Assembly (NCBI GenBank): GCA_964588955.1
Contig: CAZPQJ010000003.1
Span: 42 to 64,041 of the forward strand
Direction: 5' to 3'
Origin: an uncultured Gammaproteobacteria bacterium
GTDB lineage: Bacteria > Patescibacteriota > Patescibacteriia > UBA9934 > CAMTUG01
DNA: 64,000 nt
Shown: piece by piece, positions 1-51,251 of the stretch
How positions within the stretch are numbered: position 1 is the first letter of the stretch
How the letters are laid out: the number at the start of each line of letters is the position of its first letter
Notes under the pieces: model-generated
Databases searched by the model: none
What the model saw: the letters and a program-made list of their open reading frames with translations, nothing else
What the model was told of the DNA's origin: nothing
Position numbers and translations under genes: made by a program

Positions 1-1170
1 GGCGATAAGCGTCGAACCGCTTCCACCGAATAGGTCGAGAACGTAATCACCTGGCTTAGTGCAGCGTCGCAATGACTTTTCGTGAAGCGTTGGATTCTTG
101 CTCGTCGGATGTTCGTAAGAAGACGAGGCGAGCCGCTTCACGAGCCACACGTTGAGGAGATCAAGTACGTCGTCGATAAGCTGATTACCCGTACCAACTT
201 CCTTGTTAAGAACTTCGTTTAGATTCATGACGGAGGGCGCGAGATACGGCTTCCCACGTGTGGCGTACACGCACGGTTCGCTGACCTTGTTGAAGGCAAC
301 GCCCGGCGTAGGATTTGCGTTGTCCTTGAGCCAAATGCAGACACGCCGGTTCGTCAGTCCGAATTCTCGGAACAGTTCCTGCATGAGATAGATGTAAGAC
401 TCGTCGCACCAATAGAAGGCGTGGACGTCATGCTTCGCAACGGCGAGCGCGTTTTCCATCGTCTTCCTGATGAACGCGCGATAGTCTTTGTCGCTCAGAC
501 TGTCATTCGTCTTGTGGCCTCCGTACTTCCCAGCCGTGCCAACGCCTTTGTCGTAAGAAAGGCCGATGTTGTAGGGAGGATCGCAGGCAATGAAGCTCAC
601 GTCTCGCTTGCCAACGAGTAATGCGACATCTTCCGCCTTGGTCGAGTCTCCGCAGAGCAGACGGTGAGAACCGAGAACGTAAAGCGTTCCGGGTTTCGTC
701 ACGGGTTTCTTGATTGCGGCGATCTCCTTCACCACATCGAACTCGTCATCTTCAGTCTCAAGCGTCTCGTCCCAAATGTTGGTGATGTCTTCGCTGTCGA
801 ACCCGACGTCGAGTAGTAGATCGATATCGAATCCTTCGGCGAGCTTTGACCAATCCCAATCGCCGTGAACGCGATTGCTTGTCAGAAGATACTGGTCGTA
901 CTCGGACTGCGTGAGCTTACGGTTCGGAACACGTACTTCGATCTCCTCGTTCTCACGTCCAAGGAGTTTCAGCACAGCAAGCCGCTGATGACCTGCCAGT
1001 ACCTTGTCATCCGCGTCGATGACAGGGATCTCAACAAGATTAAATTTCTTGAGACTCTTCGTGAGATCCTCGACCTGCTTCGGACTCATGACGCGTGGGT
1101 TCTTGTCGTTCGGAATAAGGTCTGCGGCGCGCCGCTTCTCGGTGCGCCATGTGAGTTTTGTCATAAAGAT
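1..1170 (-). CDS. ParB-like nuclease domain fused to an N6-adenine/N4-cytosine DNA methyltransferase. The C-terminus runs off the window start.
   Basis: The minus-strand translation from the ATG at 1170 reads MTKLTWRTEKRR..NDKNPRVMSPKQVEDL..VIDADDKVLAGHQRL (ParB/Srx-like N-terminus), then a DPPY motif (IACDPPYNIGLSYD) and FGGSGST typical of beta-class amino-MTases. The ORF is open to position 1. Confidence 0.8.
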   Translation of the reverse strand, partial: MFMTKLTWRTEKRRAADLIPNDKNPRVMSPKQVEDLTKSLKKFNLVEIPVIDADDKVLAGHQRLAVLKLLGRENEEIEVRVPNRKLTQSEYDQYLLTSNRVHGDWDWSKLAEGFDIDLLLDVGFDSEDITNIWDETLETEDDEFDVVKEIAAIKKPVTKPGTLYVLGSHRLLCGDSTKAEDVALLVGKRDVSFIACDPPYNIGLSYDKGVGTAGKYGGHKTNDSLSDKDYRAFIRKTMENALAVAKHDVHAFYWCDESYIYLMQELFREFGLTNRRVCIWLKDNANPTPGVAFNKVSEPCVYATRGKPYLAPSVMNLNEVLNKEVGTGNQLIDDVLDLLNVWLVKRLASSSYEHPTSKNPTLHEKSLRRCTKPGDYVLDLFGGSGSTLIA

Positions 1171-1356
1171 GACGTTAAGAATGAATAGCGGGAAAAAGAA
1201 AACGCCCGCTCTGCACGGAACGAAAGCAAAAAATGCTTTTCGTCCTGTACAGAACGGGCGTTGCCGAGGCGATGCCTCTCGGGAATCAATGATTCCGTCT
1301 ATCGCTTACGCGAAATTCGCAAGACTCGTTGCCGCAAGGGCTAGAATCTTCAATTG

Positions 1357-1839
1357 TTAGTCGGTTTTTACATATAGTGGAATGCCTTGGGGTGGCATGA
1401 CGACCTTGATCTCGCGTCCCTTGGCGCGTAGATCATTGATCCGAGCCATGTCCTCTTCCGGAAGGGGAAAGAAGGCTTCAATGCGGTTACCTTCGATCTT
1501 GAAGGATTCCGTGAACGCCCGCCCGGCTTCGCCGTTCATCGCGGACTTGTGCAGATGACGCGCGAGGCTTTTCGGGTTGTTCGCCTTACGGCGGTGAAGA
1601 GTGAAGTCGGTGACGAGAAAGACGCTGACCGTCTTGCCGTCATCCTCGAGGCGGATTGTGGTCGGTCTTTCCATAGGTATTCCGCTCTCGCCACTGACTG
1701 CCAGTTTGTCGGTGAACGAAGACGTCGCCGCCCTGATTTGTAGCGATTTGTTTAGCGATTTTTTCTGCTGCTTTCTGCGTGGGAACGACGACGGTGTCGC
1801 GGGAAGCCTTCTCCCGGCGCACGCCCCAGCCGTCTTCAC
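1357..1839 (-). CDS. Hypothetical protein. The N-terminus is low-complexity; the true start may be the internal Met near 1674 (MERPTTIRLEDDGKTV...).
   Basis: ORF only; a weak GAGAG Shine-Dalgarno precedes the internal ATG; no family recognised. Confidence 0.35.
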   Translation of the reverse strand: MKTAGACAGRRLPATPSSFPRRKQQKKSLNKSLQIRAATSSFTDKLAVSGESGIPMERPTTIRLEDDGKTVSVFLVTDFTLHRRKANNPKSLARHLHKSAMNGEAGRAFTESFKIEGNRIEAFFPLPEEDMARINDLRAKGREIKVVMPPQGIPLYVKTD

Positions 1840-1922
1840 GCTTCAAAACGTGTTGGTTGGCCATAAAATAAATTAGGAATCATGCGACTATGATACGCCC
1901 GGCATTATTTAGCTGTCAACGA

Positions 1923-1975
1923 GTTCAACAAACATTGAACAACATTTGACAACGTTGCTCATCCTGATCCATAAT
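1923..1975 (+). promoter_or_regulatory. Putative operator and promoter of the LexA-like gene: an inverted repeat GTTCAA-N6-TTGAAC followed by a sigma70-like promoter.
   Basis: The inverted repeat gttcaacaaacattgaac lies at 1923-1940. It is followed by TTGACA (1946-1951), an 18-nt spacer and CATAAT (1970-1975), which ends 8 nt before the ATG at 1984. This would give a near-leaderless transcript with the operator abutting the -35. Confidence 0.45.
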
Positions 1976-1983
1976 ATTGCCGT

Positions 1984-2652
1984 ATGCATCCCATCCAAAA
2001 AGCAATTCTCGATCTCGCAAAGACTCGGAATATAGCCAAAATGACGCTCCGTGACCTTGGATTGGCGGTCACTGGCAAGGAGGAATTGCCCCAGAAGATG
2101 AAGTATCACCGTGAGAAGCTGATCGAAGCGGGACTTTTGCGGGTTGTCCACAATGGCGAGACGATTGAGCCCGTCGAATCTCGCGGCGCGACACCGGGAT
2201 TCGTACAGATTCCAATCCTTGGCGCGGCTTCCTGTGGTCCAGCCCTTGAAATCGCTCAGGAGAGCGTTGAAGGCTATCTCGTCATGTCCGAGAAGCTCGT
2301 ACCAGCCAATCATGATGCGGTTTTTGCCCTTCGCGCCGTCGGTCCCTCGATGAACCTCGCGAACGTGAATAACAAAACGATCGAGGACGGCGACATCGTC
2401 CTCGTGGATGGGAATGTCAGACAGCCATCGAACAACATGTATGTTCTTTCCGTCATCGGTGACGCCGCCAACATCAAGAAATACGTAGAGGAAGGAAACG
2501 GCCAAATCGCTCTCGTGTCCGAATCCACGGAGGATTTTCTTCCCATCTACATCCACCCAGAAGACGATTCGAGTTTCTTTATTAACGGAAAAGTAATCGA
2601 CGTCTTCAAGAAAAGGACGAAGCAGAAACAATATGCACATCGGCCATTCTGA
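1984..2652 (+). CDS. LexA/CI-like repressor: an S24 peptidase with an N-terminal winged-HTH domain.
   Basis: The N-terminus (MHPIQKAILDLAK..MTLRDLGLAV..KLIEAGLL) resembles the LexA DNA-binding fold. The C-terminus carries the S24 Ser/Lys dyad (AVGPSMNLANV ... ANIKKY) and the DGDIVLVD beta-strand typical of LexA/UmuD autoproteases. Confidence 0.75.
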   Translation: MHPIQKAILDLAKTRNIAKMTLRDLGLAVTGKEELPQKMKYHREKLIEAGLLRVVHNGETIEPVESRGATPGFVQIPILGAASCGPALEIAQESVEGYLVMSEKLVPANHDAVFALRAVGPSMNLANVNNKTIEDGDIVLVDGNVRQPSNNMYVLSVIGDAANIKKYVEEGNGQIALVSESTEDFLPIYIHPEDDSSFFINGKVIDVFKKRTKQKQYAHRPF

Positions 2653-3586
2653 AATTGTTCGCTTCGCTGACGATAGGGTTAACCTTAAGCGCGAGGACGT
2701 AAAGGAATATCGCGATCAGGTGAACCGTCTGCGCGATCGTCTTGAACAGCACATAGCGGAAAATCCCGCCTTCGCTCTGCGGAAGATGCTTCTTTCCGGT
2801 AGTCTCGCAAAGGGCACAGCACTAAAATCTATCAACGACATCGACGTTGCCGTGTACGTATCGGAATCGGACGCACCGGCCACAATGTCCGAGCTGATTG
2901 CAAGCGTGGCGGGTCGGCTTCGCACGGCATTTCCAAATTTCAAGCCCGAACAGGTCGTGCAGAACTCCTCGAACATCACAATTCTGTTCTCTGGCACCGG
3001 ATTGAAGGTCGACATTGTTCCCATCCTTTACGATCAGGATCCTGATTGGAAGGGTCACATTGTCTATGAGAACGGGAATAAGGTGCTCACAAGCATACCG
3101 ATGCACCTGGATTTCATTCGTCGCCGGAAGGCAAAGCACGAACAGCATTACGCGCAGATAATTCGACTTTTGAAGTATTGGGTTAAGTATCAGAGGTCGA
3201 AGAATCCCGAATTTCGCTTCAAGTCCTTCATGATCGAACTGTTGGTCGCCCACCTCGTGGATCGCGGCCTCGAACTCGAGGACTACCCGGAAGCTCTGGC
3301 GAATATATTCGCATACCTTGCCACGGACGCCTTCCGTACCGATATCGCATTCAGCGATCACTACGATCCGACCGATTGCCCGGAGTGTTCTGACCCTATT
3401 CGCATCTGGGATCCGGTGAACCACCAGAATAACGTGGCGAGTAGGTACACCACGGCACAGCGTGAGGCGATTATTGACGCTGCGCTTGAGGCTGGTGACG
3501 CCGTAGACTCAGCGCTCCGCGCCCCAACCAAAGCAGAGGCACTCCGTTACTGGCGCAAGGTCTTTGGGCCAACTTTTGACGCATAG
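2633..3586 (+). CDS. CBASS cGAS/DncV-like nucleotidyltransferase (CD-NTase).
   Basis: It has the GS...DID nucleotidyltransferase signature (GSLAKGTALKSINDIDVAVYV) with a third acidic residue in GLKVDIVP. It is the first gene of a four-gene operon and its start overlaps the end of the LexA-like gene by 20 nt. Confidence 0.8.
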   Translation: MHIGHSEIVRFADDRVNLKREDVKEYRDQVNRLRDRLEQHIAENPAFALRKMLLSGSLAKGTALKSINDIDVAVYVSESDAPATMSELIASVAGRLRTAFPNFKPEQVVQNSSNITILFSGTGLKVDIVPILYDQDPDWKGHIVYENGNKVLTSIPMHLDFIRRRKAKHEQHYAQIIRLLKYWVKYQRSKNPEFRFKSFMIELLVAHLVDRGLELEDYPEALANIFAYLATDAFRTDIAFSDHYDPTDCPECSDPIRIWDPVNHQNNVASRYTTAQREAIIDAALEAGDAVDSALRAPTKAEALRYWRKVFGPTFDA

Positions 3587-3588
3587 CT

Positions 3589-4098
3589 ATGTCTTACTCA
3601 ATGACCCGCACTGCCATCGAGGCATTCACCGTTACGCATGCTCGGCACATCGCCGCAAAGGTCGCGACCGACCTTCTTCGTTACACCCGTTACTACAAAA
3701 ATCCTACGATCGAGTTGATCAATAAGTACGAAGAGGAACTGGTTGCGCTCTTGAAGGCGGATTACCTGGACTACGTTATTTATGGGTACAAGCGTGATGG
3801 TAAGTGGGTCGAAGCCCTGCGTTATCACGCGCTTCCCGGTGGTACCCTGATGACCGACGATGATCCCGGAAAAATTCGCCCAGGAACCGATGTGCCAGGT
3901 GAAAATTTTGGTTCTTATCTTGTAAGGAATAGCCGCTGGGACAGCCTGCCGAAGGCGGAACAAGACCGCTTCGACGCGTCGCTTCCATTCTCGCGTAACG
4001 GTGTTCCTGAGCCCGAGCTGGTATCCGGCCGTTGGTCGCAGGATCACACTTATTCGGCACAAGGCCGTGGCATTACTCGAAGTACGATAATCCGCTAA
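3589..4098 (+). CDS. HORMA-domain protein, the CBASS type III signalling regulator (assigned from context).
   Basis: A 169-aa protein placed between the CD-NTase and the TRIP13-like ATPase, with 2-nt spacing on each side. Its size and position match bacterial HORMA1; no strong motif was recognised by eye. Confidence 0.5.
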   Translation: MSYSMTRTAIEAFTVTHARHIAAKVATDLLRYTRYYKNPTIELINKYEEELVALLKADYLDYVIYGYKRDGKWVEALRYHALPGGTLMTDDDPGKIRPGTDVPGENFGSYLVRNSRWDSLPKAEQDRFDASLPFSRNGVPEPELVSGRWSQDHTYSAQGRGITRSTIIR

Positions 4099-4100
4099 CT

Positions 4101-5030
4101 ATGGACACAGAAATTGATGATCTCTTTGACCGTCGAAGTTCCTTCCCAGATAGCGACGCCTCGACGAGATTCGGCCAGCTCGTAGGAATCGACGAAACCA
4201 AGAAACGCCTCATCGGTACCTTGGGTATTTTAGTGAATCCGCAGGGTGTACGTGATTGGGCGAAAAAGTTTCATAAGAAGAGTTCTTCGCTTCTCGACCT
4301 CGTTGAACGCCGACCTCCGCTGGTGATTTTGGCTGGTGATGTAGGTACAGGAAAGACAGAGCTCGCAAGCACCGTCGGTGATCCCGTGGCACGTCAGGAA
4401 GGAGTTGAGATCACTCTGTACCCGATCAGTCTGTCGACCCGTGGGTCCGGCATGGTTGGAGAAATGACAAAACTATTAAGCGCGGCTTTCGATGAGGTTG
4501 TGAAGCGAGCGACGGAATTAAAGGGGTCAGGAGCAAAAGCAAAGGGTGCCGTTATTCTTTTGGTAGACGAGGCTGACGCTCTCGTGCAAAGCCGCGAAAA
4601 CGCACAAATGCACCACGAGGATCGCGCGGGGGTTAACGCGTTTATTCGCGGCGTTGACCGTCTTGCGGAGCGCCACCTTCCCGCAGTTGTCATCTTGTGC
4701 ACGAATCGTCTGTCCGCCATCGATCCGGCTGTCCGACGTCGTGCCGCCGAAACTTTTGTATTTGAGAGACCTAACGAAGAGCAGCGATCGTCAGTTCTTA
4801 AAAAGCCCTTGGCTGAGATTGGCTTCTCTGAGGAAGAGATTGCTAGCATCGTGACCACCACGGGCGTCTCTGGGAGTCGTGAATATGGCTTTACTTACTC
4901 GGACTTGACCCAGAGGCTACTTCCTTCAATCGTTTTGGACGCCTACCCTGACCACGCGGTCGTCTTTGACCGTGCTTTGGAGATCGCGTCTTCAATCCAT
5001 CCCACGCCGCCTTTTCAGGAGTCCAAATAA
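4101..5030 (+). CDS. TRIP13/Pch2-like AAA+ ATPase, a CBASS type III accessory protein.
   Basis: Walker A (LVILAGDVGTGKTELA) and Walker B (VILLVDEADAL) motifs are present. The start at 4101 (MDTEIDDLFDRR) lies 2 nt after the HORMA stop codon. Confidence 0.8.
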   Translation: MDTEIDDLFDRRSSFPDSDASTRFGQLVGIDETKKRLIGTLGILVNPQGVRDWAKKFHKKSSSLLDLVERRPPLVILAGDVGTGKTELASTVGDPVARQEGVEITLYPISLSTRGSGMVGEMTKLLSAAFDEVVKRATELKGSGAKAKGAVILLVDEADALVQSRENAQMHHEDRAGVNAFIRGVDRLAERHLPAVVILCTNRLSAIDPAVRRRAAETFVFERPNEEQRSSVLKKPLAEIGFSEEEIASIVTTTGVSGSREYGFTYSDLTQRLLPSIVLDAYPDHAVVFDRALEIASSIHPTPPFQESK

Positions 5031-5034
5031 CGCT

Positions 5035-5793
5035 ATGCCAAATCGAGCAAAAGCACAGTCAACTAAAGACGGCAAGACCTTTCTCAAAGAACGTTTTATT
5101 GACGTCGAGAAGGTGTTTGTAACAAAACTGAAGGCAGATCAACGTGCTATCACTCATGATGGAGCCCTGGGGGACACCACAGAAGATTCGTGGATTGAGC
5201 TTCTTCAGCGGTATCTTCCTTCTCGTTATAAAGTTGCTAAAGCTTTCGCGGTGGATCACTTGGGAAATACCACGCAACAACTTGATTGTCTGATTTTTGA
5301 TGCGCATTTTACTCCGGCACTATTCGGAAAGGATAAGAACCTGTACGTTCCAGCAGAAGCTGTTTACGCAACTTTTGAAATTAAACAAACGGCAAATGCC
5401 ACCCATCTGAAAGCGGCGGCAAAAAAAGTTGCGTCGTTGCGTGCGTTACAACGCACATCTGTTCCTCTTACATACGGTAAAAAACAAAACCCGGCGAAAA
5501 AGCCCTTCCCGATCATCGGCGGTCTGATCTCCATGAACGCGTCGTGGAAAGGTGGTTTGGGATCAGCTTTCTTGACTCAGTTCGACTCGTTGAAAAAAGA
5601 AAAATCTCTTGATCTTGTACTTACGGCGGAGCACGGATTTTGCGACCATCTTACGCCCGCCAATGAACGCGAGGTTGTAACAGGACCCGGTTCCTTACTG
5701 CGAGGATTATTTCGTCTGCTTGATAGTCTCAGGTCTCGGGCGTCGGTAGTTGCGATCGATTGGAAAAAATATGAGGCTGTATTTGAGGACTAG
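5035..5793 (+). CDS. nucC: NucC-like restriction-endonuclease-fold (PD-(D/E)xK) nuclease, the CBASS effector.
   Basis: A PD-(D/E)xK arrangement is visible (LDCLIFD ... YVPAEAVYATFEIKQ). Long colinear similarity to E. coli NucC, as far as recalled from memory, is seen in WIELLQRYLPSRYKVAKAFAVD, KVASLRALQRTSVPL and PIIGGLIS. The gene sits 4 nt after the TRIP13-like stop codon. Confidence 0.7.
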   Translation: MPNRAKAQSTKDGKTFLKERFIDVEKVFVTKLKADQRAITHDGALGDTTEDSWIELLQRYLPSRYKVAKAFAVDHLGNTTQQLDCLIFDAHFTPALFGKDKNLYVPAEAVYATFEIKQTANATHLKAAAKKVASLRALQRTSVPLTYGKKQNPAKKPFPIIGGLISMNASWKGGLGSAFLTQFDSLKKEKSLDLVLTAEHGFCDHLTPANEREVVTGPGSLLRGLFRLLDSLRSRASVVAIDWKKYEAVFED

Positions 5794-6296
5794 CAGAGAT
5801 CCGGATTTTCGTTCTTCAGAAATACGAAAAACCAATGATGCTCACCATTCTTGATCTGCCGTGCCTTGAGTTCGCCGTTCCGCACCTTCTTGGCAACAGT
5901 TGTATGGTGCCAACCGAACTTCTTTTTGAGATCGTCAGATGATAACCAAATATCGGACTTACAAGCGACTTCTCCGGGGATCACGCCTTCCTTCACGGCC
6001 TTCTGACAGACCGGGCATTTGATCCCGAATTGGTCATACCAGCCCTCATCGTTGAACATGTGCTGCGAACACACAGCGCATGAGTAGGTACCCTGACCCG
6101 TAACGGCAAATCCATCAGGCTCTTTGAGAAGCCGCTCCTTCCACTGTTCCATCCTTACATGAACGTCGAGCAAAGTTCGGTAAAGTCCCAGGAGATTTTC
6201 GGAATACTCCAACGCTTGATCGTCAGTTAAATCTTGGTCATATTCTTTCTTCCAAAGTTCTTTGAAGGATTCGATCTGTTCGCGTTTTGTGCGCAT
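5790..6296 (-). CDS. Zn-ribbon plus excisionase-family HTH protein, a possible regulator or recombination directionality factor. The ORF extends to 6422 and the start is uncertain.
   Basis: Two CxxC pairs (CAVCSQH...CPVCQK) are present. The C-terminus (LSSDDLKKKFGWHHTTVAKKVRNGELKARQIKNGEHHWFFVF) resembles excisionase/HTH_17-type DNA-binding domains. Confidence 0.5.
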   Translation of the reverse strand: MRTKREQIESFKELWKKEYDQDLTDDQALEYSENLLGLYRTLLDVHVRMEQWKERLLKEPDGFAVTGQGTYSCAVCSQHMFNDEGWYDQFGIKCPVCQKAVKEGVIPGEVACKSDIWLSSDDLKKKFGWHHTTVAKKVRNGELKARQIKNGEHHWFFVFLKNENPDLC

Positions 6297-6439
6297 AAAA
6301 TCAGGGTTAATTTTAACTTGAGACACACCCCGTTTTCGTGTCTCATTTGTCTCATTTTGCCATGTGACCCGGGTGCTCGCACGACCCCCTAAAAAATCGC
6401 TCTGGGGGTTAAGGGAAATCAAGTTCTGTACCCGCCCGG

Positions 6440-6479
6440 GGAGCCAACAATGCCTCAGCAGAAATGCTGGGGTTTTGTT
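6440..6479 (+). terminator. Copy 1 of a 40-nt direct repeat holding a GNRA-tetraloop hairpin followed by a U-tract; it looks like an intrinsic terminator.
   Basis: The repeat is ggagccaacaatgCCTCAGCAgaaaTGCTGGGGttttgtt. It has an 8-bp stem (6453-6472) with a GAAA loop, then TTTTGTT. Confidence 0.5.
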
Positions 6480-6530
6480 ATGGTTTTGAGGCTACCTCAG
6501 GTGGGGTGAGAACTGGTATGCTTCGGATGT

Positions 6531-27290: not shown

Positions 27291-29306
27291 ATGAATAAGC
27301 GTCTTTTGTCCGTTTTTGCCTTTGTGGCTTTTGTCCTTCCTTCCGTCGCGGTTTTGCCACATCCTGCTTTAGCCGCCGGTTGGGCAGAAGTGGATTCTCC
27401 AACTTCAGAAACCCTATTTTCTGTCGATAAATACGGCGATCTTATGATTGCTGTAGGGGCAGACGGAACGGCTATTTATAGCGAAGACGAGGGGAAATCG
27501 TGGGATGAAGGCGATAGTAATACCTCAATTGATTTGTACGGGACCACCATCTTTACCAGTAGCAAGGCGGTAGCAGTTGGAACAGATGCAATGATTATGC
27601 GTACAAGTAACGGTGGCCAATCCTGGAGCGAGGCCTCAATTGATGGATTAACAAGCGCGCAAGAATCGTATGAATTTCGTGCTGTTTACGCAGTCAGTTC
27701 GACGGTTGGCTGGGCAGTCGGGGCTCATGGAATGATTGTTAAAACAGAAGATGGGGGAGCGACGTGGGAAGCAATTGATTCGCCGACTTCGCAAAGCTTG
27801 AACCAGGTTGATGCCGTGAGTACATCGATTGTGTGGGTGGTTGGAGAAAATGGAGTGATTTACAAAAGTACGAACGGCGGAAATTCTTGGAGTAGTCAAT
27901 CGTCTGGCACCTCAGAGCACCTTGTCTGTATTTACATGTACAACAGCTCGATCGGCTATGCTTCCGGGGATAACGAAACCATTCTCAAAACGACCAATGG
28001 TGGATCGGATTGGGATCAAATCTACGCCAGTGAATTACAAAATGGAGAAACGGTGATTGATCTATCGTTCGATTATTCTGAAAATGGCATTTTGACCGGT
28101 TCTGAGGGAACACTGTTGCGAACGGAAGATGGGGGAGATAATTGGAGTGAGGTTGATGAAAGTGTTTCTGAGCCGTTGTTAGATGTCATCGATTCGGCAA
28201 CGACCACATGGTGGGGGGTTGGGGATAATGGTACCATCGCCCGCTATGACGCCGCGGCTCCCGACGCGCCCACGAATTTTGATGTTAGCGGCGACAATTC
28301 TAGTGTCTCTGATTCCACTCCGAAATTTACTTGGAGTGCTTCAAATGACGACGAAACCAGCATTGACTACTACGAATTCAAAATGGACTCTGATTCTTAC
28401 AAAAATATTGGAAATGTCACTACAAAAACGTATTCTACGGAGCTCGATAATGGCAGACACACGGCCTACGTGCGTGCGGTTGATGATGCGGGAAACACGT
28501 CATCTGCCGCGAGTGTTACGTTTACCGTAGATGCTGACTCTTCTTCCAGCCCTTCTGGCAATCCAGACATCGCTAAGATCACCCCTACCTCCGCAGTCAA
28601 AAATGAAACCGTCACCTTTAACGCCATGATCGAAGACGATGACGGCACCATCGATTCGTGTGCGCTTTACGTTGACGGGGATTATGAAAAGGCCATGAGC
28701 ATCAAAACAGACATGGCCTATACCACCATGAAGTTCACGGCTACAGGTTCATATTCGGTCTACGCACGCTGTATCAACGACGATGGTGATACCGTGAGTG
28801 GATCAAGTACGACCGTGAGCGTAGTGAGCGATTCTGGATATGCCGATCCGGGAGATTTGATCAAAATTACCTGTTCCGGCAACGTGTATGTGAACGATCC
28901 TTGCACGACGGTCTATTACTATGGTTATGATGGCCGCCGTCACGCTTTTCCGAATGAAGCAGTGTTCAAAAGTTGGTTTAACGACTTCGACGATTTGGTT
29001 CAACTGACGAGTTCCGCAATGGCCAATATTTCATTGGGCGAAAACGTCACCTATAAACCGGGAGAGCAGCTCGTGCAATTTTCCACCTCAACCGTCTATG
29101 CGGTTTCCTACGGAGGGATCTTACGGCCAATCGCTAATGGCACCATCGCCAAGTCCCTTTTTGGGAGCAATTGGACAAGCGAAATTGCCTGGGTGAGTGA
29201 TGTCTTCTTCGGTAACTACCGTATTGGTTCGACGATTGAAAGTAGCGCCGACTTTTCCATTAGTGGCGTTCAAAGCGTTAGCAAAACCATTGATTCGACG
29301 TTCTAA
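27291..29306 (+). CDS. Secreted BNR/Asp-box repeat protein (Ycf48/sortilin-like beta-propeller) with C-terminal Ig/Fn3-like domains.
   Basis: Repeated S/T-x-D/N-G-G-x-S/T-W motifs (TSNGGQSW, TEDGGATW, STNGGNSW, TTNGGSDW, TEDGGDNW). Confidence 0.6.
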   Translation: MNKRLLSVFAFVAFVLPSVAVLPHPALAAGWAEVDSPTSETLFSVDKYGDLMIAVGADGTAIYSEDEGKSWDEGDSNTSIDLYGTTIFTSSKAVAVGTDAMIMRTSNGGQSWSEASIDGLTSAQESYEFRAVYAVSSTVGWAVGAHGMIVKTEDGGATWEAIDSPTSQSLNQVDAVSTSIVWVVGENGVIYKSTNGGNSWSSQSSGTSEHLVCIYMYNSSIGYASGDNETILKTTNGGSDWDQIYASELQNGETVIDLSFDYSENGILTGSEGTLLRTEDGGDNWSEVDESVSEPLLDVIDSATTTWWGVGDNGTIARYDAAAPDAPTNFDVSGDNSSVSDSTPKFTWSASNDDETSIDYYEFKMDSDSYKNIGNVTTKTYSTELDNGRHTAYVRAVDDAGNTSSAASVTFTVDADSSSSPSGNPDIAKITPTSAVKNETVTFNAMIEDDDGTIDSCALYVDGDYEKAMSIKTDMAYTTMKFTATGSYSVYARCINDDGDTVSGSSTTVSVVSDSGYADPGDLIKITCSGNVYVNDPCTTVYYYGYDGRRHAFPNEAVFKSWFNDFDDLVQLTSSAMANISLGENVTYKPGEQLVQFSTSTVYAVSYGGILRPIANGTIAKSLFGSNWTSEIAWVSDVFFGNYRIGSTIESSADFSISGVQSVSKTIDSTF

Positions 29307-45839: not shown

Positions 45840-46373
45840 TTGCTCTTTATGACTTTCACTCTCATCGATGTCATCCTCATTGTCCTTGTCGTTGTCTTCG
45901 TCGTTTCCGGATCGATTCTCGGGTTTGTAAAATCCCTTGGTGGATTTCTTGGTGCGGCGGTAGGTATTTTTGTGGCCTCACGCGTGGCGGGGCCGATTGG
46001 CGACTGGCTCGCTCCGGTGGTTGGCGGCAATAGTCAGATCGTTTCGATCGTTGCCTTCTCGATTGTCTATTTGGTCGCTTCACGTTTGTTTGCCTTGCTG
46101 TTTTGGATTGTGGAAAAAACCCTTGGAGTGGCCGCCAAGTTGCCATTCTTGAGTTCGGTGGATCATTTGCTTGGTGCTATTTTTGGATTTTTGGAAGGCG
46201 TTATTGCCGTGGCGGCAGTGGTTTATTATGCGGGTGCCGTTTTGCCAACAGATGTGTTGCAGAATTCCATTCAAACCTCACAAGTAGGCGTTTGGCTGCT
46301 TTCAGTGTTTGATTTAGTCAAAGGATTAGTTCCGGCCGCCTTACAAGCAAAGATTGAAGAGCAAGTTTTGTAA
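45840..46373 (+). CDS. cvpA: CvpA-family membrane protein.
   Basis: IDVILIVLVVVFVVSGSILGFVKSLGGFLGAAVGIFVA is a typical CvpA N-terminus. Confidence 0.6.
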   Translation: MLFMTFTLIDVILIVLVVVFVVSGSILGFVKSLGGFLGAAVGIFVASRVAGPIGDWLAPVVGGNSQIVSIVAFSIVYLVASRLFALLFWIVEKTLGVAAKLPFLSSVDHLLGAIFGFLEGVIAVAAVVYYAGAVLPTDVLQNSIQTSQVGVWLLSVFDLVKGLVPAALQAKIEEQVL

Positions 46374-47217
46374 TGTGATTGATACTCACTGTCACGTCCA
46401 CTTTCGGGCGTACAAAGACGACATGGATGAAGTGATTAAACGGACGCTGGAAAAAGGCGTGCGCATGATTACGGTTGGTACGCAGTCGACGACGAGTAAA
46501 AATGGCATCGAAGTCGCAGAAAAATACGACGGTGTGTACACCACCATCGGCCTACATCCCAATCACACTTGCGAGCAGCATTTTGAAGATGAGATGGAGG
46601 AAATTAAAACGCGTTGTGAGAGTTTTGACGTGGAGTATTATCGTGCGCTGGCAAAGCACCCTAAAGTGGTGGCGATCGGGGAGTGCGGATTGGATTATTA
46701 TCGCATTCCGCCGGAAGTGGATCGTGATGCGTTGATTGTGAAACAAAAAGAAGAACTGCACAAACAACTCTCGTTAGCGGATGAACTCAATCTGCCGGTG
46801 GTGATTCATTGCCGCGACGCGCATGCGGATCAGTTAGCCATGCTCAAGGAATTTACGGACGCGGGAAAACTAACGCGCAAAGGAGTCATTCACTGCTTCA
46901 CCGGCACCCTTGCCGAAGCCTGTGCCTATCATGCGATTGGTTTCTTAACGAGCTTCACTGGCATCATCACGTTTCCACCAAGAAAAAGCGAAGGTCCAAT
47001 CTCCCCGCTGCAATCCGTCGTCGCCGACTGCCCTCTCGAAATGATGATCCTCGAAACCGATTCCCCCTACCTAACCCCCGAACCCCACCGCGGCGAACGT
47101 AACGAACCCTGGTACGTACAGTTCGTCGCCGCTAAAGTAGCGGAGCTCAAGGGGATTAGCCTGGAAGAAGTGGATCGCGTAACGACACAGAATGCGGAAA
47201 GATTGTTTGGAATATAG
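46372..47217 (+). CDS. tatD: TatD-family metal-dependent hydrolase. The start is probably the GTG at 46372 overlapping the cvpA stop; the long ORF begins at 46354.
   Basis: (V/M)IDTHCHVHF, GECGLDYYR and VIHCRDA motifs. Confidence 0.8.
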   Translation, partial: NVIDTHCHVHFRAYKDDMDEVIKRTLEKGVRMITVGTQSTTSKNGIEVAEKYDGVYTTIGLHPNHTCEQHFEDEMEEIKTRCESFDVEYYRALAKHPKVVAIGECGLDYYRIPPEVDRDALIVKQKEELHKQLSLADELNLPVVIHCRDAHADQLAMLKEFTDAGKLTRKGVIHCFTGTLAEACAYHAIGFLTSFTGIITFPPRKSEGPISPLQSVVADCPLEMMILETDSPYLTPEPHRGERNEPWYVQFVAAKVAELKGISLEEVDRVTTQNAERLFGI

Positions 47218-47257
47218 AGCGAAGAGAAAGATGGAGAAAGTAGGAGAAAAAGATATA

Positions 47258-47369
47258 GGCGGGGCCACTGTGCCCCGCCAGGGACACGTGTAGAAATAGC
47301 AAGCGCCCCCGGAGGAGAGTTTCCTTCGGGGGCGTTGAAGTTGTCGCTGCCCCCGGAGGAAGTTCCTCC
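47258..47369. repeat. Three consecutive GC-rich hairpins with an internal 12-nt direct repeat (gcccccggagga), located at the junction between tatD and the GC-rich island.
   Basis: ggcggggccactgtgccccgcc; cgcccccggagg..ccttcgggggcg; ggaggaagttcctcc. Confidence 0.5.
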
Positions 47370-47472
47370 ACAACCACGAGGGGTTGCTTGGGGACGCTAG
47401 CGTGCGGAGATCAGTCCCGCGTGGCGTCTTTCGACTACCTCCTTGATCTACGCGGAACCTTGATCCCGCGAA

Positions 47473-49260
47473 CTACGACGAGGCCGGGGCCTCGCCAGGG
47501 GCCTGCTGGATCTCTCCCGTCGCGCGACCCTTGCGCGAACGGCGGGGCTTCTTCTCCGTCACGGGCGGGGTGGCGGGCGCTTCGGGAGCCGGGGCGGAGG
47601 GATCGATCACGGCGATGAGCGCCGCCTCCGCCGCGTCGAGCGCGGCCAGGAGCTCGAGCCTGCCGGTCCCGATCTCGATCGCCGCCAGGCCGTGGTGCTG
47701 GCGCCGCTGGTTGAGGTAGGTGAGGGCCGTTCCCCCGTCCTCCTTTCCTTTCTGCTCCGCGGTGGCTCCGCGGACGGCCTGAGGCGTGTTGCCCCGCGGC
47801 TGCAGGAAGGCCCAGGCTTCCACCGTGATCGCCTCGCCGAATGTGACCGTGAGATCCACCAAGGGGCAGGTGATGAGCTTCTCCGCGGCCTGCAGAAGAT
47901 CCTTGCGGACCTGTAGCGCCGTCGGGTTCTCGAAGTCGGCGTCGGCTGCCCCGTTCCCGCGCATCCACGCGAGCATCGGGTCGTCCTCGACCGGCCGCTT
48001 GAACTTGAAGTCACCGAAGCGCTTGCGCGCCTCCCAGATCGGCACGTCCGTGCCGATCCCGGTGGCCGCGCGGGCTTGCTCTACCGAGAAGACACTGGTC
48101 AGTCGCCCGACCATGTCCGCCCGGTAGTGCCCCTGTTCGACTTCGGCACTCGGACGCACGTTCTCGACGAGCGTGGTCATCACGAGGCCTCGTCGCTCGC
48201 CTTCCTGCCTCGGCATGGTCCACCCCACGGCCATGATGGCCTTGACCGTCGGATGGGTGTCCCTCGGCTCCTCCCTGCCGAGACGGTCGATGATCGACGC
48301 CAGGCGCGTGACGTCGAAGCGGTTGATGGTGACCCCCAACGCGTCCATGGGGGGAACGTTCGGCACCTTGCTCATGTGCGCGACCGTCTTCGGGGCGCGC
48401 TGCTTGAGCTGCGGGCGGAGATCCGCACCGCTGGTGTACGCTCCGACGACTCGTGCCCAGACCGCTCCGAAGGTCTCCATGCGCTCGCCGATGGGGAGGC
48501 TGAAGATGACCGCACCCGGATCAGGAACCACCGAGTCGTTGAGCAGCATGACGGACTTCCCCTCGTATCGGACACCGCGCACCTTCCGAACCCGCCCACC
48601 GTCATAGGTGATCACGGGATCTTCCGACTGCACTTCGCCCACGAAGAGGATCTGTCCCTCGTAGAGCTCGTAGACCGGATCCTCGTCCTCCGGGATCAGG
48701 CGCTTGGACGGTTCGGCCATGATGTTGTAGGCCTTGACCGCCTTCGAGCCGGCCACGATCCAGGGGAGCGCACACCATTCACCGTCGATCTCCCAGACCA
48801 AACAGTCGTAGGCCTTTCCGGGGATCGGCTTGTGGATGGCACAGGTGAGCGCGCGCGCCAGCAAGTGCCTGGTCTCCCCGTCGACATCCATGTCGAAGGG
48901 GGCCACGTAGACTTGCTTGCGTCCCATCTGCCGCGGACCGAAGGTCAGGCGACGCTGGGTCACTCGGTCACCCGGGATCACGCACTTCGACCCGAGCCGG
49001 TAGCTCGCGTAGTAGAGTAGACCCCAGAGCGCGGCGTAGGCCTTGTCCTGGGGGCTCATCACCACCAGGGCGTTCTTGGTGCCCAAGATGGAGTTGGCGG
49101 CATCCTCGATGGTCAGGCTGGGGTTGTCCGCCACCATCTGCCTGGCCTGCGTGAGCTGCTTGACGGTGAGGCCAAGCTTCTTGGCTTCGGCCTCGTCCAG
49201 AGCGGCTTGCATGGCGTTGGCGGGCGTGGTGGAGCGGGGCGGGTTCTTCTTCTGGGACAT
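47473..49260 (-). CDS. Hypothetical 595-aa protein of a GC-rich, foreign-looking island.
   Basis: Long ORF with strongly G/C-biased third positions, unlike the flanking genes. No Walker or recombinase motifs were recognised. Confidence 0.5.
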   Translation of the reverse strand: MSQKKNPPRSTTPANAMQAALDEAEAKKLGLTVKQLTQARQMVADNPSLTIEDAANSILGTKNALVVMSPQDKAYAALWGLLYYASYRLGSKCVIPGDRVTQRRLTFGPRQMGRKQVYVAPFDMDVDGETRHLLARALTCAIHKPIPGKAYDCLVWEIDGEWCALPWIVAGSKAVKAYNIMAEPSKRLIPEDEDPVYELYEGQILFVGEVQSEDPVITYDGGRVRKVRGVRYEGKSVMLLNDSVVPDPGAVIFSLPIGERMETFGAVWARVVGAYTSGADLRPQLKQRAPKTVAHMSKVPNVPPMDALGVTINRFDVTRLASIIDRLGREEPRDTHPTVKAIMAVGWTMPRQEGERRGLVMTTLVENVRPSAEVEQGHYRADMVGRLTSVFSVEQARAATGIGTDVPIWEARKRFGDFKFKRPVEDDPMLAWMRGNGAADADFENPTALQVRKDLLQAAEKLITCPLVDLTVTFGEAITVEAWAFLQPRGNTPQAVRGATAEQKGKEDGGTALTYLNQRRQHHGLAAIEIGTGRLELLAALDAAEAALIAVIDPSAPAPEAPATPPVTEKKPRRSRKGRATGEIQQAPGEAPASS

Positions 49261-49401
49261 GGTGCCTCCTAGGCGGATGTGGCCGTTTGGCCGTTTGTGG
49301 CCTTATGGCCGGGTGATTGGACTGACTGCCGACTTTATATTAGACGGCCCAAAGGCCTAAAAGTCGATTTAAGTCAGCTCAAAAAATTATCACATTTTTT
49401 T

Positions 49402-49444
49402 ACTTTTGTCAATGGCTAATGATGCTGAAGCTATTGACAAAAGT
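49402..49444. promoter_or_regulatory. Perfect 12-bp inverted repeat (ACTTTTGTCAAT ... ATTGACAAAAGT), a candidate operator in the AT-rich divergent promoter region of the GC-rich island.
   Basis: Each arm contains TTGACA. The region 49300-49576 is AT-rich and sits between two divergently oriented GC-rich genes. Confidence 0.5.
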
Positions 49445-49576
49445 GTATTTTTATGCTAGTTTTTTAAGTCGGTTTTTCGTTGCTGGACAGTTAAAAACAG
49501 CTCGAAACGCCGTAGAGTTTCTGTTCACAGATCGATTCTGATCCACCCGCATCTTCAAACTGCCCAAGGAGGCACC

Positions 49577-50785: not shown

Positions 50786-50853
50786 GGACAATTCACGAAT
50801 TGTCCAAGGAGACCCGGGCTCCCTCCGCTTTCGGAGCCCACAACACGCGTGAA

Positions 50854-50898
50854 CGCCGGCCAGGGTCAACTCCCTCGGCCGGCGATCGCTTTTTATTT
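50854..50898 (+). terminator. Intrinsic terminator closing the GC-rich island on the plus strand.
   Basis: An 8-bp GC stem (cgccggcc ... ggccggcg) followed by ctttttattt. Confidence 0.6.
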
Positions 50899-50937
50899 CA
50901 CTTTTCTCATATTTTCTCCTATTTTTTCTTTTTTCCC

Positions 50938-50966
50938 TTGACCCCACCCTCTATTTCCTCTATACT
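50938..50966 (+). promoter_or_regulatory. Sigma70-like promoter of the ATP synthase operon.
   Basis: TTGACC (50938-50943), a 17-nt spacer and TATACT (50961-50966), lying 40 nt upstream of atpZ. Confidence 0.6.
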
Positions 50967-51249: not shown

Positions 51250-51251
51250 TT

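What the first reader, a model, noticed from the sequence alone, without database searches (positions are those of the whole stretch)
2633..5793. Complete four-gene Type III CBASS operon (CD-NTase / HORMA / TRIP13 / NucC)
Four genes packed with 2-4 nt spacers. (1) The nucleotidyltransferase has the GS..DID CD-NTase signature. (2) A 169-aa protein sits in the HORMA position. (3) An AAA+ ATPase carries Walker A/B motifs like TRIP13/Pch2. (4) A PD-(D/E)xK nuclease is colinear with NucC. This is the architecture of the cA3-activated NucC abortive-infection system first described in E. coli MS115-1, here found in a very different small-gene genomic background.
Basis: partly seen in the sequence, partly recalled or inferred. 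Interest (0 to 1): 0.75.

Follow-up and report, generated by a model that had tools for sequence, protein, structure and literature searches.

The report
Type III CBASS operon on mobile element
This is a real, intact four-gene CBASS anti-phage suicide system closely related to the well-studied E. coli MS115-1 one, so the system is ordinary; what is less ordinary is that it sits in an ultra-small Patescibacteria genome, on a small phage-derived mobile island, apparently in one operon with a LexA-like self-cleaving repressor.

Summary

**The four genes.**
- CdnC-type CD-NTase, 2633-3586.
- HORMA, 3589-4098.
- TRIP13/Pch2 ATPase, 4101-5030.
- NucC nuclease, 5035-5793.

Spacers are 2, 2 and 4 nt. 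Each protein matches its family model far above threshold and aligns over its full length to the solved E. coli MS115-1 protein (38-58% identity). Catalytic, Walker and cA3-pocket residues are retained. The AlphaFold model of the 169-aa protein superposes on E. coli HORMA (TM 0.86). As such this is a new member of a known kind.

- A LexA-like S24 repressor gene (1984-2652) overlaps the cyclase start by 20 nt. It has its own near-leaderless promoter, so the unit probably has five genes.
- Window 1 to about 6480 is the right end of a roughly 10.9-kb integrative island found with three different right-hand flanks. It carries a serine integrase, TerS/TerL, a methylase and a repressor, but no virion structural genes.
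- The host is a Patescibacteria (CPR) bacterium.
- In related elements, S24 homologues head other defence cargo: type I CBASS, RM, TIR and OLD-like systems.

I found no published description of a LexA-type regulator for CBASS. Its function is inferred, not shown.

The parts
2633..3586 (+). CdnC-type CD-NTase (cGAS/DncV-like cyclic-oligonucleotide synthase), 317 aa
   Evidence: NF041116 CBASS_cyclase_a scores 390 bits (cut-off 200) and PADLOC Cyclase PDLC00808 scores 423 bits. It is 50% identical over 315 aa to E. coli MS115-1 CdnC, 6p80. G56-S57, D69, D71 and D127 are conserved.
3589..4098 (+). Bacterial HORMA domain protein (family 1), 169 aa
   Evidence: PF18138 scores 168 bits and PADLOC HORMA 211 bits. 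It is 48% identical to E. coli HORMA, 6p8v_H. The AF2 model has pLDDT 75.5, and Foldseek gives TM 0.86 to 6p8v_H. The N-terminal SYS...THARH aligns with E. coli HORMA, which supports the 3589 start over the 3601 start used by some gene callers.
4101..5030 (+). TRIP13/Pch2-like AAA+ ATPase, 309 aa
   Evidence: PADLOC TRIP13 PDLC00914 scores 433 bits. It is 58% identical to E. coli MS115-1 Trip13, 6p8v_A, and also matches Rhizobiales Pch2, 6pb3. Walker A K85 and Walker B D156-E157 are present.
5035..5793 (+). NucC-family cA3-activated endonuclease effector, 252 aa
   Evidence: PADLOC Effector 'Endonuclease (NucC)' scores 240 bits and PF20247 DUF6602 scores 98 bits. It matches Serratia NucC 7zgv at 170 bits and E. 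coli NucC 6p7o at 149 bits. Catalytic D84, E115 and K117 are present. Pocket residues are R64, F92 (E. coli Y81), S237 (E. coli T226) and V238.
1984..2652 (+). LexA-like S24 self-cleaving repressor, 222 aa. Its stop codon lies 20 nt inside the cyclase gene, so it is the probable first gene of the transcription unit.
   Evidence: PF00717 scores 54 bits, and phrog_4 'transcriptional repressor' matches. It aligns to LexA 8s7g over residues 12-207, placing Cys84-Gly85 at the LexA Ala84-Gly85 cleavage site, Ser122 at S119 and Lys165 at K156. G85, S122 and K165 are invariant in 14 homologues.
1865..1983 (.). Divergent promoter/operator region between the DUF2188 gene (-) and the S24 gene (+)
   Evidence: There are two promoter-like sites, each matching 11 of 12 consensus positions. 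On the + strand, TTGACA (1946) -18- CATAAT (ends 1975) lies 8 nt before the ATG at 1984, which implies a near-leaderless transcript. On the - strand, TTGACA (1919) -18- TATCAT ends at 1890. A perfect palindrome GTTCAA-N6-TTGAAC (1923-1940) lies between the two -35 boxes. It is unique in the window but not statistically significant, so it is only a candidate operator.
5790..6326 (-). Last gene of the island (about 178 aa, Zn-ribbon plus an HTH-like tail), convergent with NucC and overlapping it by 4 nt. Function unknown.
   Evidence: It is called as a 178-aa gene in all related contigs. It has no Pfam, PHROG or PADLOC hit. A homologous segment lies next to the S24 gene in L047.
1..6480 (.). Right-hand 6.5 kb of a roughly 10.9-kb integrative phage-derived island. 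The window starts inside its ParB_N/N6_N4 methyltransferase gene. The right junction is at about 6450-6485.
   Evidence: Window 1 to 6315-6522 (by locus) is 99.6-99.9% identical to six metagenome contigs (247-6481 for the cut-off L005) and diverges from all of them beyond 6481-6522. Between them, those contigs and the window show three different right flanks. The full island also carries a serine integrase, TerL and TerS.
1640..1864 (-). DUF2188 small protein, first gene of the divergent (leftward) operon of the island
   Evidence: PF09954 and phrog_3220 (61 bits) match. The gene is conserved at 68-69% identity next to S24 homologues in L009 and L059.

Best explanation
The region encodes an intact type III CBASS abortive-infection system. 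It is carried as cargo on a small phage-derived integrative island in a Patescibacteria genome and is most likely transcribed together with the island's LexA-like repressor.

**Mechanism, by homology to E. coli MS115-1 (inferred here).**
1. In uninfected cells the TRIP13 hexamer pulls on the disordered N-terminus of HORMA and keeps it in the open, inactive state.
2. On infection, HORMA closes around a peptide ('closure motif') of a foreign protein and binds CdnC.
3. CdnC, probably with DNA bound to its basic patch, makes cyclic tri-AMP.
4. cA3 binds the three-fold pocket of NucC trimers, which pair into hexamers and cut double-stranded DNA non-specifically.
5. The cell dies before phage is released.

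**Expression (inferred from sequence).**
- A sigma-70-like promoter abuts the ATG of the S24 gene.
- The five genes overlap or are 2-4 nt apart, with no convincing internal promoter or terminator.
- CBASS is therefore made from the repressor's own message, as lambda rexAB is made with cI.
- The repressor has the LexA autocleavage apparatus, so DNA damage (RecA*) should inactivate it and change expression of the locus.

**What is shown:** gene identities, intact motifs, the HORMA fold, operon geometry, island mobility, the host phylum, and recurrence of S24-led defence cargo.

**What is inferred:** the cA3 product, anti-phage activity, co-transcription, repressor binding and repressor cleavage.
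For: **Family models.** All four proteins score far above threshold.

**Solved relatives.** Each protein aligns over its full length to the E. coli MS115-1 CdnC, HORMA, Trip13 or NucC structure, at 50, 48, 58 and 38% identity.

**Functional residues are retained.**
- CdnC: D69 and D71, equivalent to E. coli D72 and D74, the published active-site residues.
- Trip13: K85 and E157, equivalent to E. coli K87 and E159.
- NucC: D84, E115, K117, plus R64, F92, S237 and V238, equivalent to E. coli R53, Y81, T226 and V227.

[quoted passage not shown] Foldseek gives TM 0.86 to 6p8v_H.

**Gene order in relatives.** Among 49 GTDB loci, the order CdnC-HORMA-TRIP13 holds in 46, and NucC follows directly in 27.

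**Operon geometry.** The inter-gene distances are -20, 2, 2 and 4 nt. The two promoter-like sites that match 11 of 12 positions lie in the 1865-1983 gap (a weaker 9-of-12 site at 1842-1869 overlaps its left edge), and no promoter-like site lies inside the operon.

**S24 linkage recurs.** S24-CdnC-HORMA-TRIP13-NucC is found in three further diverged lineages: L099/L100, L101/L102 and L047. CdnC identity to the window's copy is 47-74% and S24 identity is 31-46%, and the genes are always tightly abutted.

**Island.** Near-identical copies sit in different right flanks. It carries an integrase, TerL (phrog_38, 251 bits), TerS and a methylase.

**Host.** AtpD's nearest named relatives (80-83% identity) are mostly Patescibacteria, Uhrbacteria, Magasanikbacteria or Parcubacteria. 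The named S24 homologues that carry a taxon are all CPR (two say only 'bacterium').
Against: - Nothing here shows activity. There is no expression, nucleotide-product or phage-challenge data.
- The NucC gate-loop 'latch' residues differ from E. coli (H136 to Y, Y141 to N), and two pocket residues carry conservative substitutions.
- Two of the four mapped basic DNA-patch residues of CdnC are not conserved (R171 to A, K175 to Q), although the patch stays basic (RRRKAK).
- Co-transcription rests on spacing and consensus scans. The count of promoter-like hits in the region is no higher than chance (3 found against 3.8 expected).
- The candidate operator is not statistically significant.
- Sigma-70 consensus rules are untested in Patescibacteria.
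Confidence: 0.85

Rival explanations
1. The S24 protein is a dedicated, DNA-damage-responsive regulator of CBASS. It would be a one-polypeptide functional analogue of CapH/CapP rather than merely the island's immunity repressor. It represses its own five-gene operon, and RecA*-stimulated self-cleavage during SOS boosts CBASS expression.
For: - The LexA autocleavage residues are invariant.
- An S24 gene heads four different CD-NTase systems: this type III operon and its relatives, L047, CD-NTase plus Cap15 in L059, and a 168-aa gene plus SMODS plus SEC-C in L093-96. In L093-96 no integrase or terminase is annotated within 8 kb.
- A near-palindrome at 1936-1961 overlaps the -35 box of the S24 promoter, which would fit negative autoregulation.
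- CapH/CapP sets a precedent for DNA-damage induction of this same kind of CBASS.
Against: - The same S24 family heads unrelated cargo (RM, TIR, OLD-like ATPases, PDC-M48) and faces the island's terminase/methylase operon across a divergent promoter. That is the layout of a prophage immunity region.
- If the repressor stimulates its own promoter, as lambda cI does, cleavage would lower CBASS expression rather than raise it.
- The two readings are not mutually exclusive.
Confidence: 0.35
2. The operon serves the mobile island rather than the cell. It would be a satellite or prophage weapon that destroys the host or a competing or helper phage genome at a particular stage of the island's own life cycle, or an addiction module that stabilises the island.
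For: - It sits inside a mobile element that has a terminase but no capsid or tail genes.
- NucC cuts DNA non-specifically.
- Satellites are known from the wider literature (my own knowledge, not checked here) to carry defence systems that target non-helper phages.
Against: - There is no evidence for a helper phage or for excision.
- All sensing components of a standard CBASS are intact, which fits ordinary infection sensing.
- Benefit to the island and benefit to the host coincide while the island is integrated.
Confidence: 0.1
3. The operon is an inactive relic: recently transferred cargo that is not expressed, or not functional, in a Patescibacteria cell.
For: - The closest cyclases in named reference genomes are non-CPR, at 50-57% identity: one Gemmatimonadaceae MAG and otherwise mostly Proteobacteria, which suggests horizontal origin.
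- In one relative (L101) the S24 gene is truncated.
Against: - All four ORFs are intact with catalytic residues.
- The operon is identical in at least 20 contigs from several samples.
- GC content equals that of the host (0.515 against 0.515).
- Orthologous five-gene arrays persist in lineages diverged to 47-74% identity, which argues for purifying selection.
Confidence: 0.05

Closest known systems
E. coli MS115-1 type III CBASS (CdnC-HORMA-Trip13-NucC; Ye et al., 10.1101/694695; Lau et al., 10.1101/694703)
   Same: - Same four proteins in the same order.
- 50, 48, 58 and 38% identity across essentially the full length of each protein.
- Same catalytic, Walker and cA3-pocket residues.
- One-HORMA architecture (bacHORMA_1).
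- Predicted closed-state HORMA fold.
   Different: - The host is Patescibacteria rather than Enterobacteria.
- The upstream regulator is a LexA-like S24 protein in the same orientation and overlapping the cyclase. E. coli MS115-1 instead has the CapH/CapP pair.
- NucC gate-loop latch residues differ (Y147 and N152 in place of H136 and Y141).
- The operon is carried on an integrase/terminase island of about 10.9 kb.
CapH/CapP and CapW regulators of CBASS (10.1101/2022.04.27.489752; PMC9122588)
   Same: A repressor gene sits immediately upstream of CBASS. The predicted inactivation is by proteolysis in response to DNA damage, which is the same logic as CapP cleaving CapH.
   Different: - It is one polypeptide with a serine-lysine S24 autoprotease, not an HTH protein plus a Zn-metallopeptidase and not a WYL protein. 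Pfam finds only Peptidase_S24.
- It is co-directional with the CBASS genes and overlaps the first of them.
- The CapH/CapP paper does not mention LexA or S24.
- Function is untested here.
Lambda cI-rexA-rexB and other prophage or satellite defence slots next to the immunity repressor
   Same: - Defence genes lie directly downstream of, and apparently co-transcribed with, a self-cleaving repressor that faces a divergent promoter.
- The promoter is leaderless-type.
- Cargo at the same position varies between related elements.
   Different: - The repressor's DNA-binding domain is LexA-type winged helix rather than cI-type HTH. PF01726 hits appear in homologues.
- The element has TerS and TerL but no structural genes, and its hosts are CPR bacteria.
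- The comparison with lambda rests on my own knowledge of lambda biology.
Serratia and Vibrio metoecus NucC of type III CRISPR-Cas loci (PDB 7zgv, 6uxf)
   Same: It is the same nuclease family. Serratia NucC is the best solved-structure match, at 170 bits.
   Different: Here NucC follows a CD-NTase, HORMA and TRIP13. No cas genes or CRISPR array are seen in the island.

Membership tests
Type III CBASS | CD-NTase with the GS...DxD...D nucleotidyltransferase active site | tested here: met
   NF041116 scores 390 bits against a cut-off of 200. G56-S57, D69, D71 and D127 align with E. coli CdnC G59-S60, D72, D74 and D130.
Type III CBASS | HORMA-domain ancillary protein next to the cyclase | tested here: met
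   PF18138 scores 168 bits. The protein is 48% identical to 6p8v_H. The AF2 model reaches TM 0.86 to 6p8v_H, followed by REV7 and MAD2.
Type III CBASS | TRIP13/Pch2 AAA+ ATPase with intact Walker A and B motifs | tested here: met
   PADLOC TRIP13 scores 433 bits. The protein is 58% identical to 6p8v_A. K85 and D156-E157 are present.
Type III CBASS | Effector gene in the same operon | tested here: met
   NucC starts 4 nt after the TRIP13 stop. The same order occurs in 27 of 49 related loci.
Type III CBASS | Protection against phage by abortive infection; HORMA-dependent cyclic oligonucleotide synthesis | not testable with these tools
   This needs a phage challenge and in-vitro synthesis with LC-MS.
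NucC endonuclease family | IDx30EAK active-site motif (Lau et al.) | tested here: met
   The window has L-D84...x30...E115-I-K117. All three catalytic residues are conserved, and the flanking I-to-L and A-to-I changes are conservative.
NucC endonuclease family | cA3 pocket residues R53, Y81, T226 and V227, and gate-loop residues H136 and Y141 | tested here: inconclusive
   The pocket residues are R64, F92, S237 and V238, so the pocket chemistry is kept. The gate-loop positions are Y147 and N152, so the latch is not conserved. In the same alignment columns Serratia NucC also differs from E. coli, with N and A.
NucC endonuclease family | Trimer-to-hexamer assembly on cA3 binding | not testable with these tools
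   This needs SEC-MALS or a structure.
LexA/S24 self-cleaving repressors | Ser-Lys catalytic dyad and an Ala/Cys-Gly cleavage site | tested here: met
   S122, K165 and C84-G85 align to LexA S119, K156 and A84-G85. S122, K165 and G85 are invariant in 14 homologues.
LexA/S24 self-cleaving repressors | N-terminal LexA-type winged-helix DNA-binding domain | tested here: inconclusive
   The window protein itself has no PF01726 hit. However, it aligns to LexA 8s7g from residue 12, and homologues of the same family, including L047's S24, do hit PF01726.
LexA/S24 self-cleaving repressors | RecA*-stimulated autocleavage and operator binding | not testable with these tools
   This needs biochemistry.
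CapH/CapP- or CapW-regulated CBASS | HTH repressor plus IrrE-like metallopeptidase, or a WYL-domain factor, upstream of the operon | tested here: not met
   The only upstream regulator is the S24 protein. Pfam, NCBIfam and PADLOC give no XRE-type HTH, metallopeptidase or WYL hits within window 1357-2652.
Phage satellite / phage-inducible island | Integrase, repressor and packaging genes, small size, no virion structural genes, helper-dependent transfer | tested here: inconclusive
   The island has an integrase, an S24 repressor, TerS and TerL within 10.9 kb, and no capsid, portal or tail hits. The slot between TerL and the integrase holds defence-like genes in a relative. No replication module was identified. 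Helper dependence and excision were not testable.

The most novel reading that the evidence does not exclude
Patescibacteria carry a family of small satellite-like integrative elements with this layout: serine integrase, TerL, TerS, ParB-methylase, then a divergent promoter region, then a LexA-like repressor.

In these elements the LexA-like self-cleaving repressor gene is the fixed head of a swappable defence-cargo slot. The slot holds type III CBASS here. In relatives it holds type I CBASS, another SMODS system, RM, ThsB-TIR plus a membrane protein, OLD/Gabija-like ATPases, or PDC-M48.

The LexA-type protein would then be a third, previously undescribed class of CBASS and defence regulator. 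It would couple immune-gene expression to the SOS signal through a single autoproteolytic polypeptide.
Probability: 0.45. Interest if true: 0.6.

Novelty: new member of a known kind. Interest (0 to 1): 0.4.

Why it matters
**The operon itself.** It adds little to what is known. It is a clear orthologue set of the best-characterised type III CBASS.

**The context is the useful part.**
- It documents an intact cA3/NucC abortive-infection system in a CPR/Patescibacteria genome. These are organisms with minimal genomes and an epibiotic lifestyle, and suicide immunity is not obviously expected there.
- It shows how such genomes acquire the system: a mobile phage-derived island of about 11 kb, found in several insertion contexts.
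- It suggests a simple regulatory solution, a LexA paralogue translated from the same message. This solution recurs in front of many different defence systems.

If confirmed, the repressor-led slot would give a cheap 'guilt-by-position' handle for finding new defence genes in CPR metagenomes. Several cargos there have no annotation: the 131-aa, 177-aa and 310-aa proteins in L009, L008 and L084.

Tried and rejected
**Searches that found nothing.**
- tRNA and Rfam scans of the window: no tRNA att site and no RNA element.
- Repeat finder on 1830-2010: no result at its thresholds.
- CdnC against 50,697 deposited phage genomes: no match.
- Literature searches for CBASS with LexA/S24 or with Patescibacteria: no paper describing either.
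- The Patescibacteria LexA-motif paper (PMID 28618189) is not held in the library, so its binding motif could not be compared.

**Tests that were inconclusive.**
- The hand-read palindrome GTTCAA-N6-TTGAAC is unique in the window, but 29 of 100 shuffles give at least one match within one mismatch. It remains only a candidate operator.
- Comparing regions upstream of 13 S24 homologues showed recurring GTCAA/TTGAC words. These coincide with the -35 hexamers of the divergent promoters, so no operator motif could be separated from promoter signal.
- dN/dS between island copies was uninformative for CBASS, because the copies are 100% identical there. It did reveal that the integrase gene alone is only 80% identical.

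**Ideas considered and rejected.**
- The S24 gene is the host's own lexA sitting there by chance. Rejected because it lies inside the mobile island, and the tight S24-CBASS linkage recurs in four diverged lineages. A homologue in a housekeeping context (P0054) shows what a probable host copy looks like.
- NucC belongs to a type III CRISPR locus. Rejected because there are no cas genes.
- An exact-sequence look-up of the 203-aa NCBI version of S24 failed. The source genome could not be named; it is known only as a 141,142-bp NCBI contig.

Full report
**1. Observation.**

The region 2633-5793 holds four co-directional ORFs on the + strand.
- 2633-3586, 317 aa.
- 3589-4098, 169 aa.
- 4101-5030, 309 aa from the ATG. 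The mechanical ORF list extends it to a TTG at 4032.
- 5035-5793, 252 aa from the ATG. The listed TTG at 4966 is an extension.

The motifs it read by eye are present at the stated places.

**2. Identity of the four proteins.**

Family models:
- The cyclase matches NCBIfam NF041116 'CBASS oligonucleotide cyclase' at 390 bits (cut-off 200) and PADLOC Cyclase at 423 bits.
- The 169-aa protein matches Pfam bacHORMA_1 at 168 bits (cut-off 35.6) and PADLOC HORMA at 211 bits.
- The ATPase matches PADLOC TRIP13 at 433 bits.
- The last protein matches PADLOC 'Endonuclease (NucC)' effector at 240 bits and Pfam DUF6602 at 98 bits.

Against all PDB sequences, the best or near-best hits are the E. coli MS115-1 proteins themselves.
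- CdnC, 6p80: 358 bits.
- HORMA, 6p8v_H: 141 bits.
- Trip13, 6p8v_A: 392 bits.
- NucC, 6p7o: 149 bits. Serratia NucC, 7zgv, scores 170 bits.

BLASTP identities to the E. coli proteins are 50%, 48%, 58% and 38% over essentially full length.

Residues that the primary papers showed to be needed are present.
- CdnC D69 and D71 are equivalent to E. coli D72 and D74.
- Trip13 K85 and E157 are equivalent to E. coli K87 and E159.
- NucC D84, E115 and K117 form the IDx30EAK motif.
- The cA3 contacts R64, F92, S237 and V238 are equivalent to E. coli R53, Y81, T226 and V227.

Deviations:
- The NucC gate-loop latch is not conserved (E. coli H136 and Y141 become Y147 and N152).
- Two of the four mapped basic residues of the CdnC DNA patch are not conserved, although the stretch stays basic (RRRKAK).

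**3.

An AlphaFold2 model was built on 49 homologues. It has mean pLDDT 75.5 and pTM 0.73. It shows a disordered N-terminus (residues 1-10) and a C-terminal beta-hairpin. Foldseek against the PDB returns E. coli MS115-1 HORMA first (6p8v_H, TM 0.86, E = 2e-17), followed by REV7, MAD2 and P. aeruginosa HORMA2. The test is passed. The conserved N-terminal SYS...THARH stretch supports the 3589 start rather than the 3601 start used by some metagenome gene callers.

**4. Relatives.**

A scan of one genome per GTDB species found 49 loci encoding a related cyclase, at 36-57% identity. The top hit is a Gemmatimonadaceae MAG and the rest are mostly Proteobacteria. HORMA and TRIP13 follow the cyclase in 46 of them, and NucC follows directly in 27. 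The architecture is therefore the standard one-HORMA type III CBASS.

**5. A fifth gene.**

Immediately upstream, 1984-2652 (+) encodes a 222-aa S24 peptidase-family protein (PF00717, 54 bits; phrog_4 'transcriptional repressor'). Its stop codon lies 20 nt inside the cyclase gene.
- It aligns to LexA (8s7g) from residue 12 to 207. This places Cys84-Gly85 at the LexA Ala84-Gly85 cleavage site, Ser122 at the nucleophile S119, and Lys165 at K156.
- G85, S122 and K165 are invariant among 14 homologues.
- Homologues of the family hit the LexA DNA-binding domain model.

The 119-bp gap upstream (1865-1983) contains the only two strong sigma-70-like sites of the 5.4 kb scanned. They are back to back.
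- The rightward site ends 8 nt before the S24 ATG, which implies a near-leaderless message.
- The leftward site serves a DUF2188 gene.

No promoter-like site and no convincing terminator lies between 1984 and 5793. A perfect palindrome GTTCAA-N6-TTGAAC sits between the two -35 boxes. It is a candidate operator only, because it is not statistically significant.

**6. Mobile island and host.**

The exact cyclase protein occurs on at least 20 metagenome contigs.
- Window 1 to 6315-6522 (by locus) is 99.6-99.9% identical to six of them (247-6481 for the cut-off L005). Beyond 6481-6522 the window and two groups of contigs all differ.
- Upstream, off the window's edge, the shared block continues to a large serine integrase.
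- The full block of about 10.9 kb encodes, in order: integrase, a 253-aa protein, TerL (phrog_38, 251 bits; distant hits to annotated terminases of cultured phages), TerS, a ParB_N/N6_N4 methyltransferase, two small genes, S24, the CBASS genes and a 178-aa Zn-ribbon protein.
- No capsid, portal or tail gene is present.
- Two variants of the island are 99.7-100% identical in every gene from the 253-aa gene through the 178-aa gene, but only 80% identical in the integrase gene, and they sit in different flanks.
- Island GC content equals host GC content.

The rest of the window is chromosomal. It encodes F-type ATP synthase, MetRS, leucyl aminopeptidase and an AddA-like helicase. The nearest named relatives of its AtpD, at 80-83% identity, are mostly Patescibacteria, Uhrbacteria, Magasanikbacteria or Parcubacteria.

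**7. The repressor heads a variable defence slot.**

The named S24 homologues that carry a taxon are all CPR (two say only 'bacterium'). The table lists what directly follows an S24 homologue in each context examined. The separation ranges from a 32-nt overlap to a 20-nt gap.

| Locus | What follows the S24 gene |
|---|---|
| L099/L100, L101/L102 (HORMA 69-73% identical to the window's) and L047 (Patescibacteria BroJett025) | The same type III CBASS |
| L059 | CD-NTase plus Cap15 (type I CBASS) |
| L093-96 (Minisyncoccia) | 168-aa gene, SMODS, SEC-C protein |
| L060/61 | HsdR-like helicase plus an N6_Mtase/Eco57I/Methylase_S protein |
| L068 | Two ThsB-type TIR proteins plus an 8xMP membrane protein |
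| L080 | Two OLD/AriA/GajA-like ATPases |
| L007/8 | A TIR-effector-like protein plus a 177-aa protein |
| L009 | 131-aa protein plus PDC-M48B |
| L062/63, L084 | Unannotated proteins |

- Most of these loci share the Mtase-TerS-TerL-integrase backbone, which also recurs in about 25 IMG/VR contigs.
- In one of those contigs the TerL-integrase interval holds a second defence-like block: a PIF1 helicase, a PD-(D/E)xK nuclease, a ResIII helicase and a large methylase.
- One homologue (P0054) sits among glycolysis and pentose-phosphate genes and is probably a host lexA.
- Among the 49 GTDB cyclase loci, only the Patescibacteria one has an S24 gene upstream.

**8. Mechanism.**

By homology to E. 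coli MS115-1, inferred here:
1. Trip13 keeps HORMA open by engaging its N-terminus.
2. A foreign closure-motif peptide closes HORMA, which then binds and activates CdnC, together with DNA.
3. CdnC makes cA3.
4. cA3 drives NucC trimers into hexamers that shred double-stranded DNA and abort the infection.

Expression, inferred from geometry:
- The five genes form one message from the repressor's promoter, as lambda rexAB does with cI.
- The repressor's LexA-type autocleavage would link the locus to DNA damage.
- Whether cleavage raises or lowers CBASS expression cannot be decided from sequence.

**9. Comparison and novelty.**

The four-gene system meets every sequence-testable criterion of type III CBASS and of the NucC family. 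It is a new member of a known kind. The known CBASS regulators are CapW (WYL domain) and CapH/CapP (HTH plus metallopeptidase). Neither is present here, and the CapH/CapP paper does not mention LexA or S24. Full-text searches found no report of a LexA-type regulator for CBASS, and no report of CBASS in Patescibacteria. The library is incomplete, so this is absence of evidence only. The repressor-led cargo slot resembles prophage and satellite defence hotspots in concept.

**10. Limits.**

- There is no functional data of any kind.
- The promoter and operator calls rest on E. coli-type consensus patterns.
- Contexts were sampled (about 15 S24 homologues), not surveyed exhaustively.
- The element's satellite nature (helper dependence, excision) is untested.
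- The source genome could not be named beyond phylum level.

Noticed in passing
window 1-6480; L001 2867-13847; L059, L060, L009, L065-L084: There is a family of small Patescibacteria integrative elements with a fixed backbone: serine integrase, TerL, TerS, ParB_N/N6_N4 methylase, DUF2188, then a LexA-like repressor across a divergent promoter. No capsid, portal or tail genes are present, so they look satellite-like. The backbone recurs in about 25 IMG/VR contigs.
   Followed up: partly
L069 11517-19099: The interval between TerL and the integrase is a second variable slot. Here it holds a PIF1 helicase, a PD-(D/E)xK nuclease, an 895-aa ResIII helicase and an 839-aa N6_N4 methylase, which looks like a type III RM-like defence block. 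In other relatives the integrase follows TerL directly.
   Followed up: partly
L001 2867-4216 compared with L002 2869-4200: Two copies of the island are 99.7-100% identical in DNA in every gene from the 253-aa gene next to the integrase through the last (178-aa) gene. The integrase gene alone is only 80% identical (dS about 0.76), and the two copies sit in different flanks. This points to a swapped integrase module.
   Followed up: partly
window 6450-6485: The right junction of the island coincides with a terminator-like hairpin (GCCTCAGCAGAAATGCTGGGGT followed by TTTGTT). The hairpin is present in similar but not identical form in all three insertion contexts. It may be the attachment target.
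   Followed up: partly
window 5790-6326 (-): This is a 178-aa protein with two CxxC pairs and an HTH-like C-terminal tail. It is convergent with NucC and overlaps it by 4 nt, and it matches no family in Pfam, PHROGs or PADLOC. A homologous segment forms the C-terminus of a 540-aa protein just upstream of the S24 gene in L047, and another occurs in L089. It might be a directionality factor or regulator.
   Followed up: partly
L093 8001-10997 (also L094-L096): In a Minisyncoccia genome, a LexA-like S24 gene is followed, with a 4-nt overlap, by a 168-aa protein, a SMODS cyclase (335 aa) and a SEC-C-domain protein (284 aa). This looks like an unclassified CD-NTase system.
   Followed up: no
L068 3582-4907 (-): Directly after an S24 homologue come two small ThsB-type TIR proteins (123 and 135 aa) and an '8xMP' octameric membrane protein (189 aa). 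This could be a compact TIR-plus-membrane-effector defence system.
   Followed up: no
L101 6784-7026: In one relative of the five-gene array the S24 gene is truncated to 80 aa while the CBASS genes stay intact. This is a natural 'repressor-less' variant that could show what the repressor does.
   Followed up: no
window 46000-52000: This stretch has GC 0.57-0.62, against about 0.51 elsewhere. It includes a 595-aa ORF (47473-49260, - strand) with no Pfam hit, and may be foreign DNA.
   Followed up: no
window 15137-17023 and 27291-29306: These are large surface-type proteins (DUF285 'Mycoplasma' repeats plus PKD; BNR/Ycf48-like repeats plus Big_13). They fit an epibiotic Patescibacteria lifestyle.
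   Followed up: no
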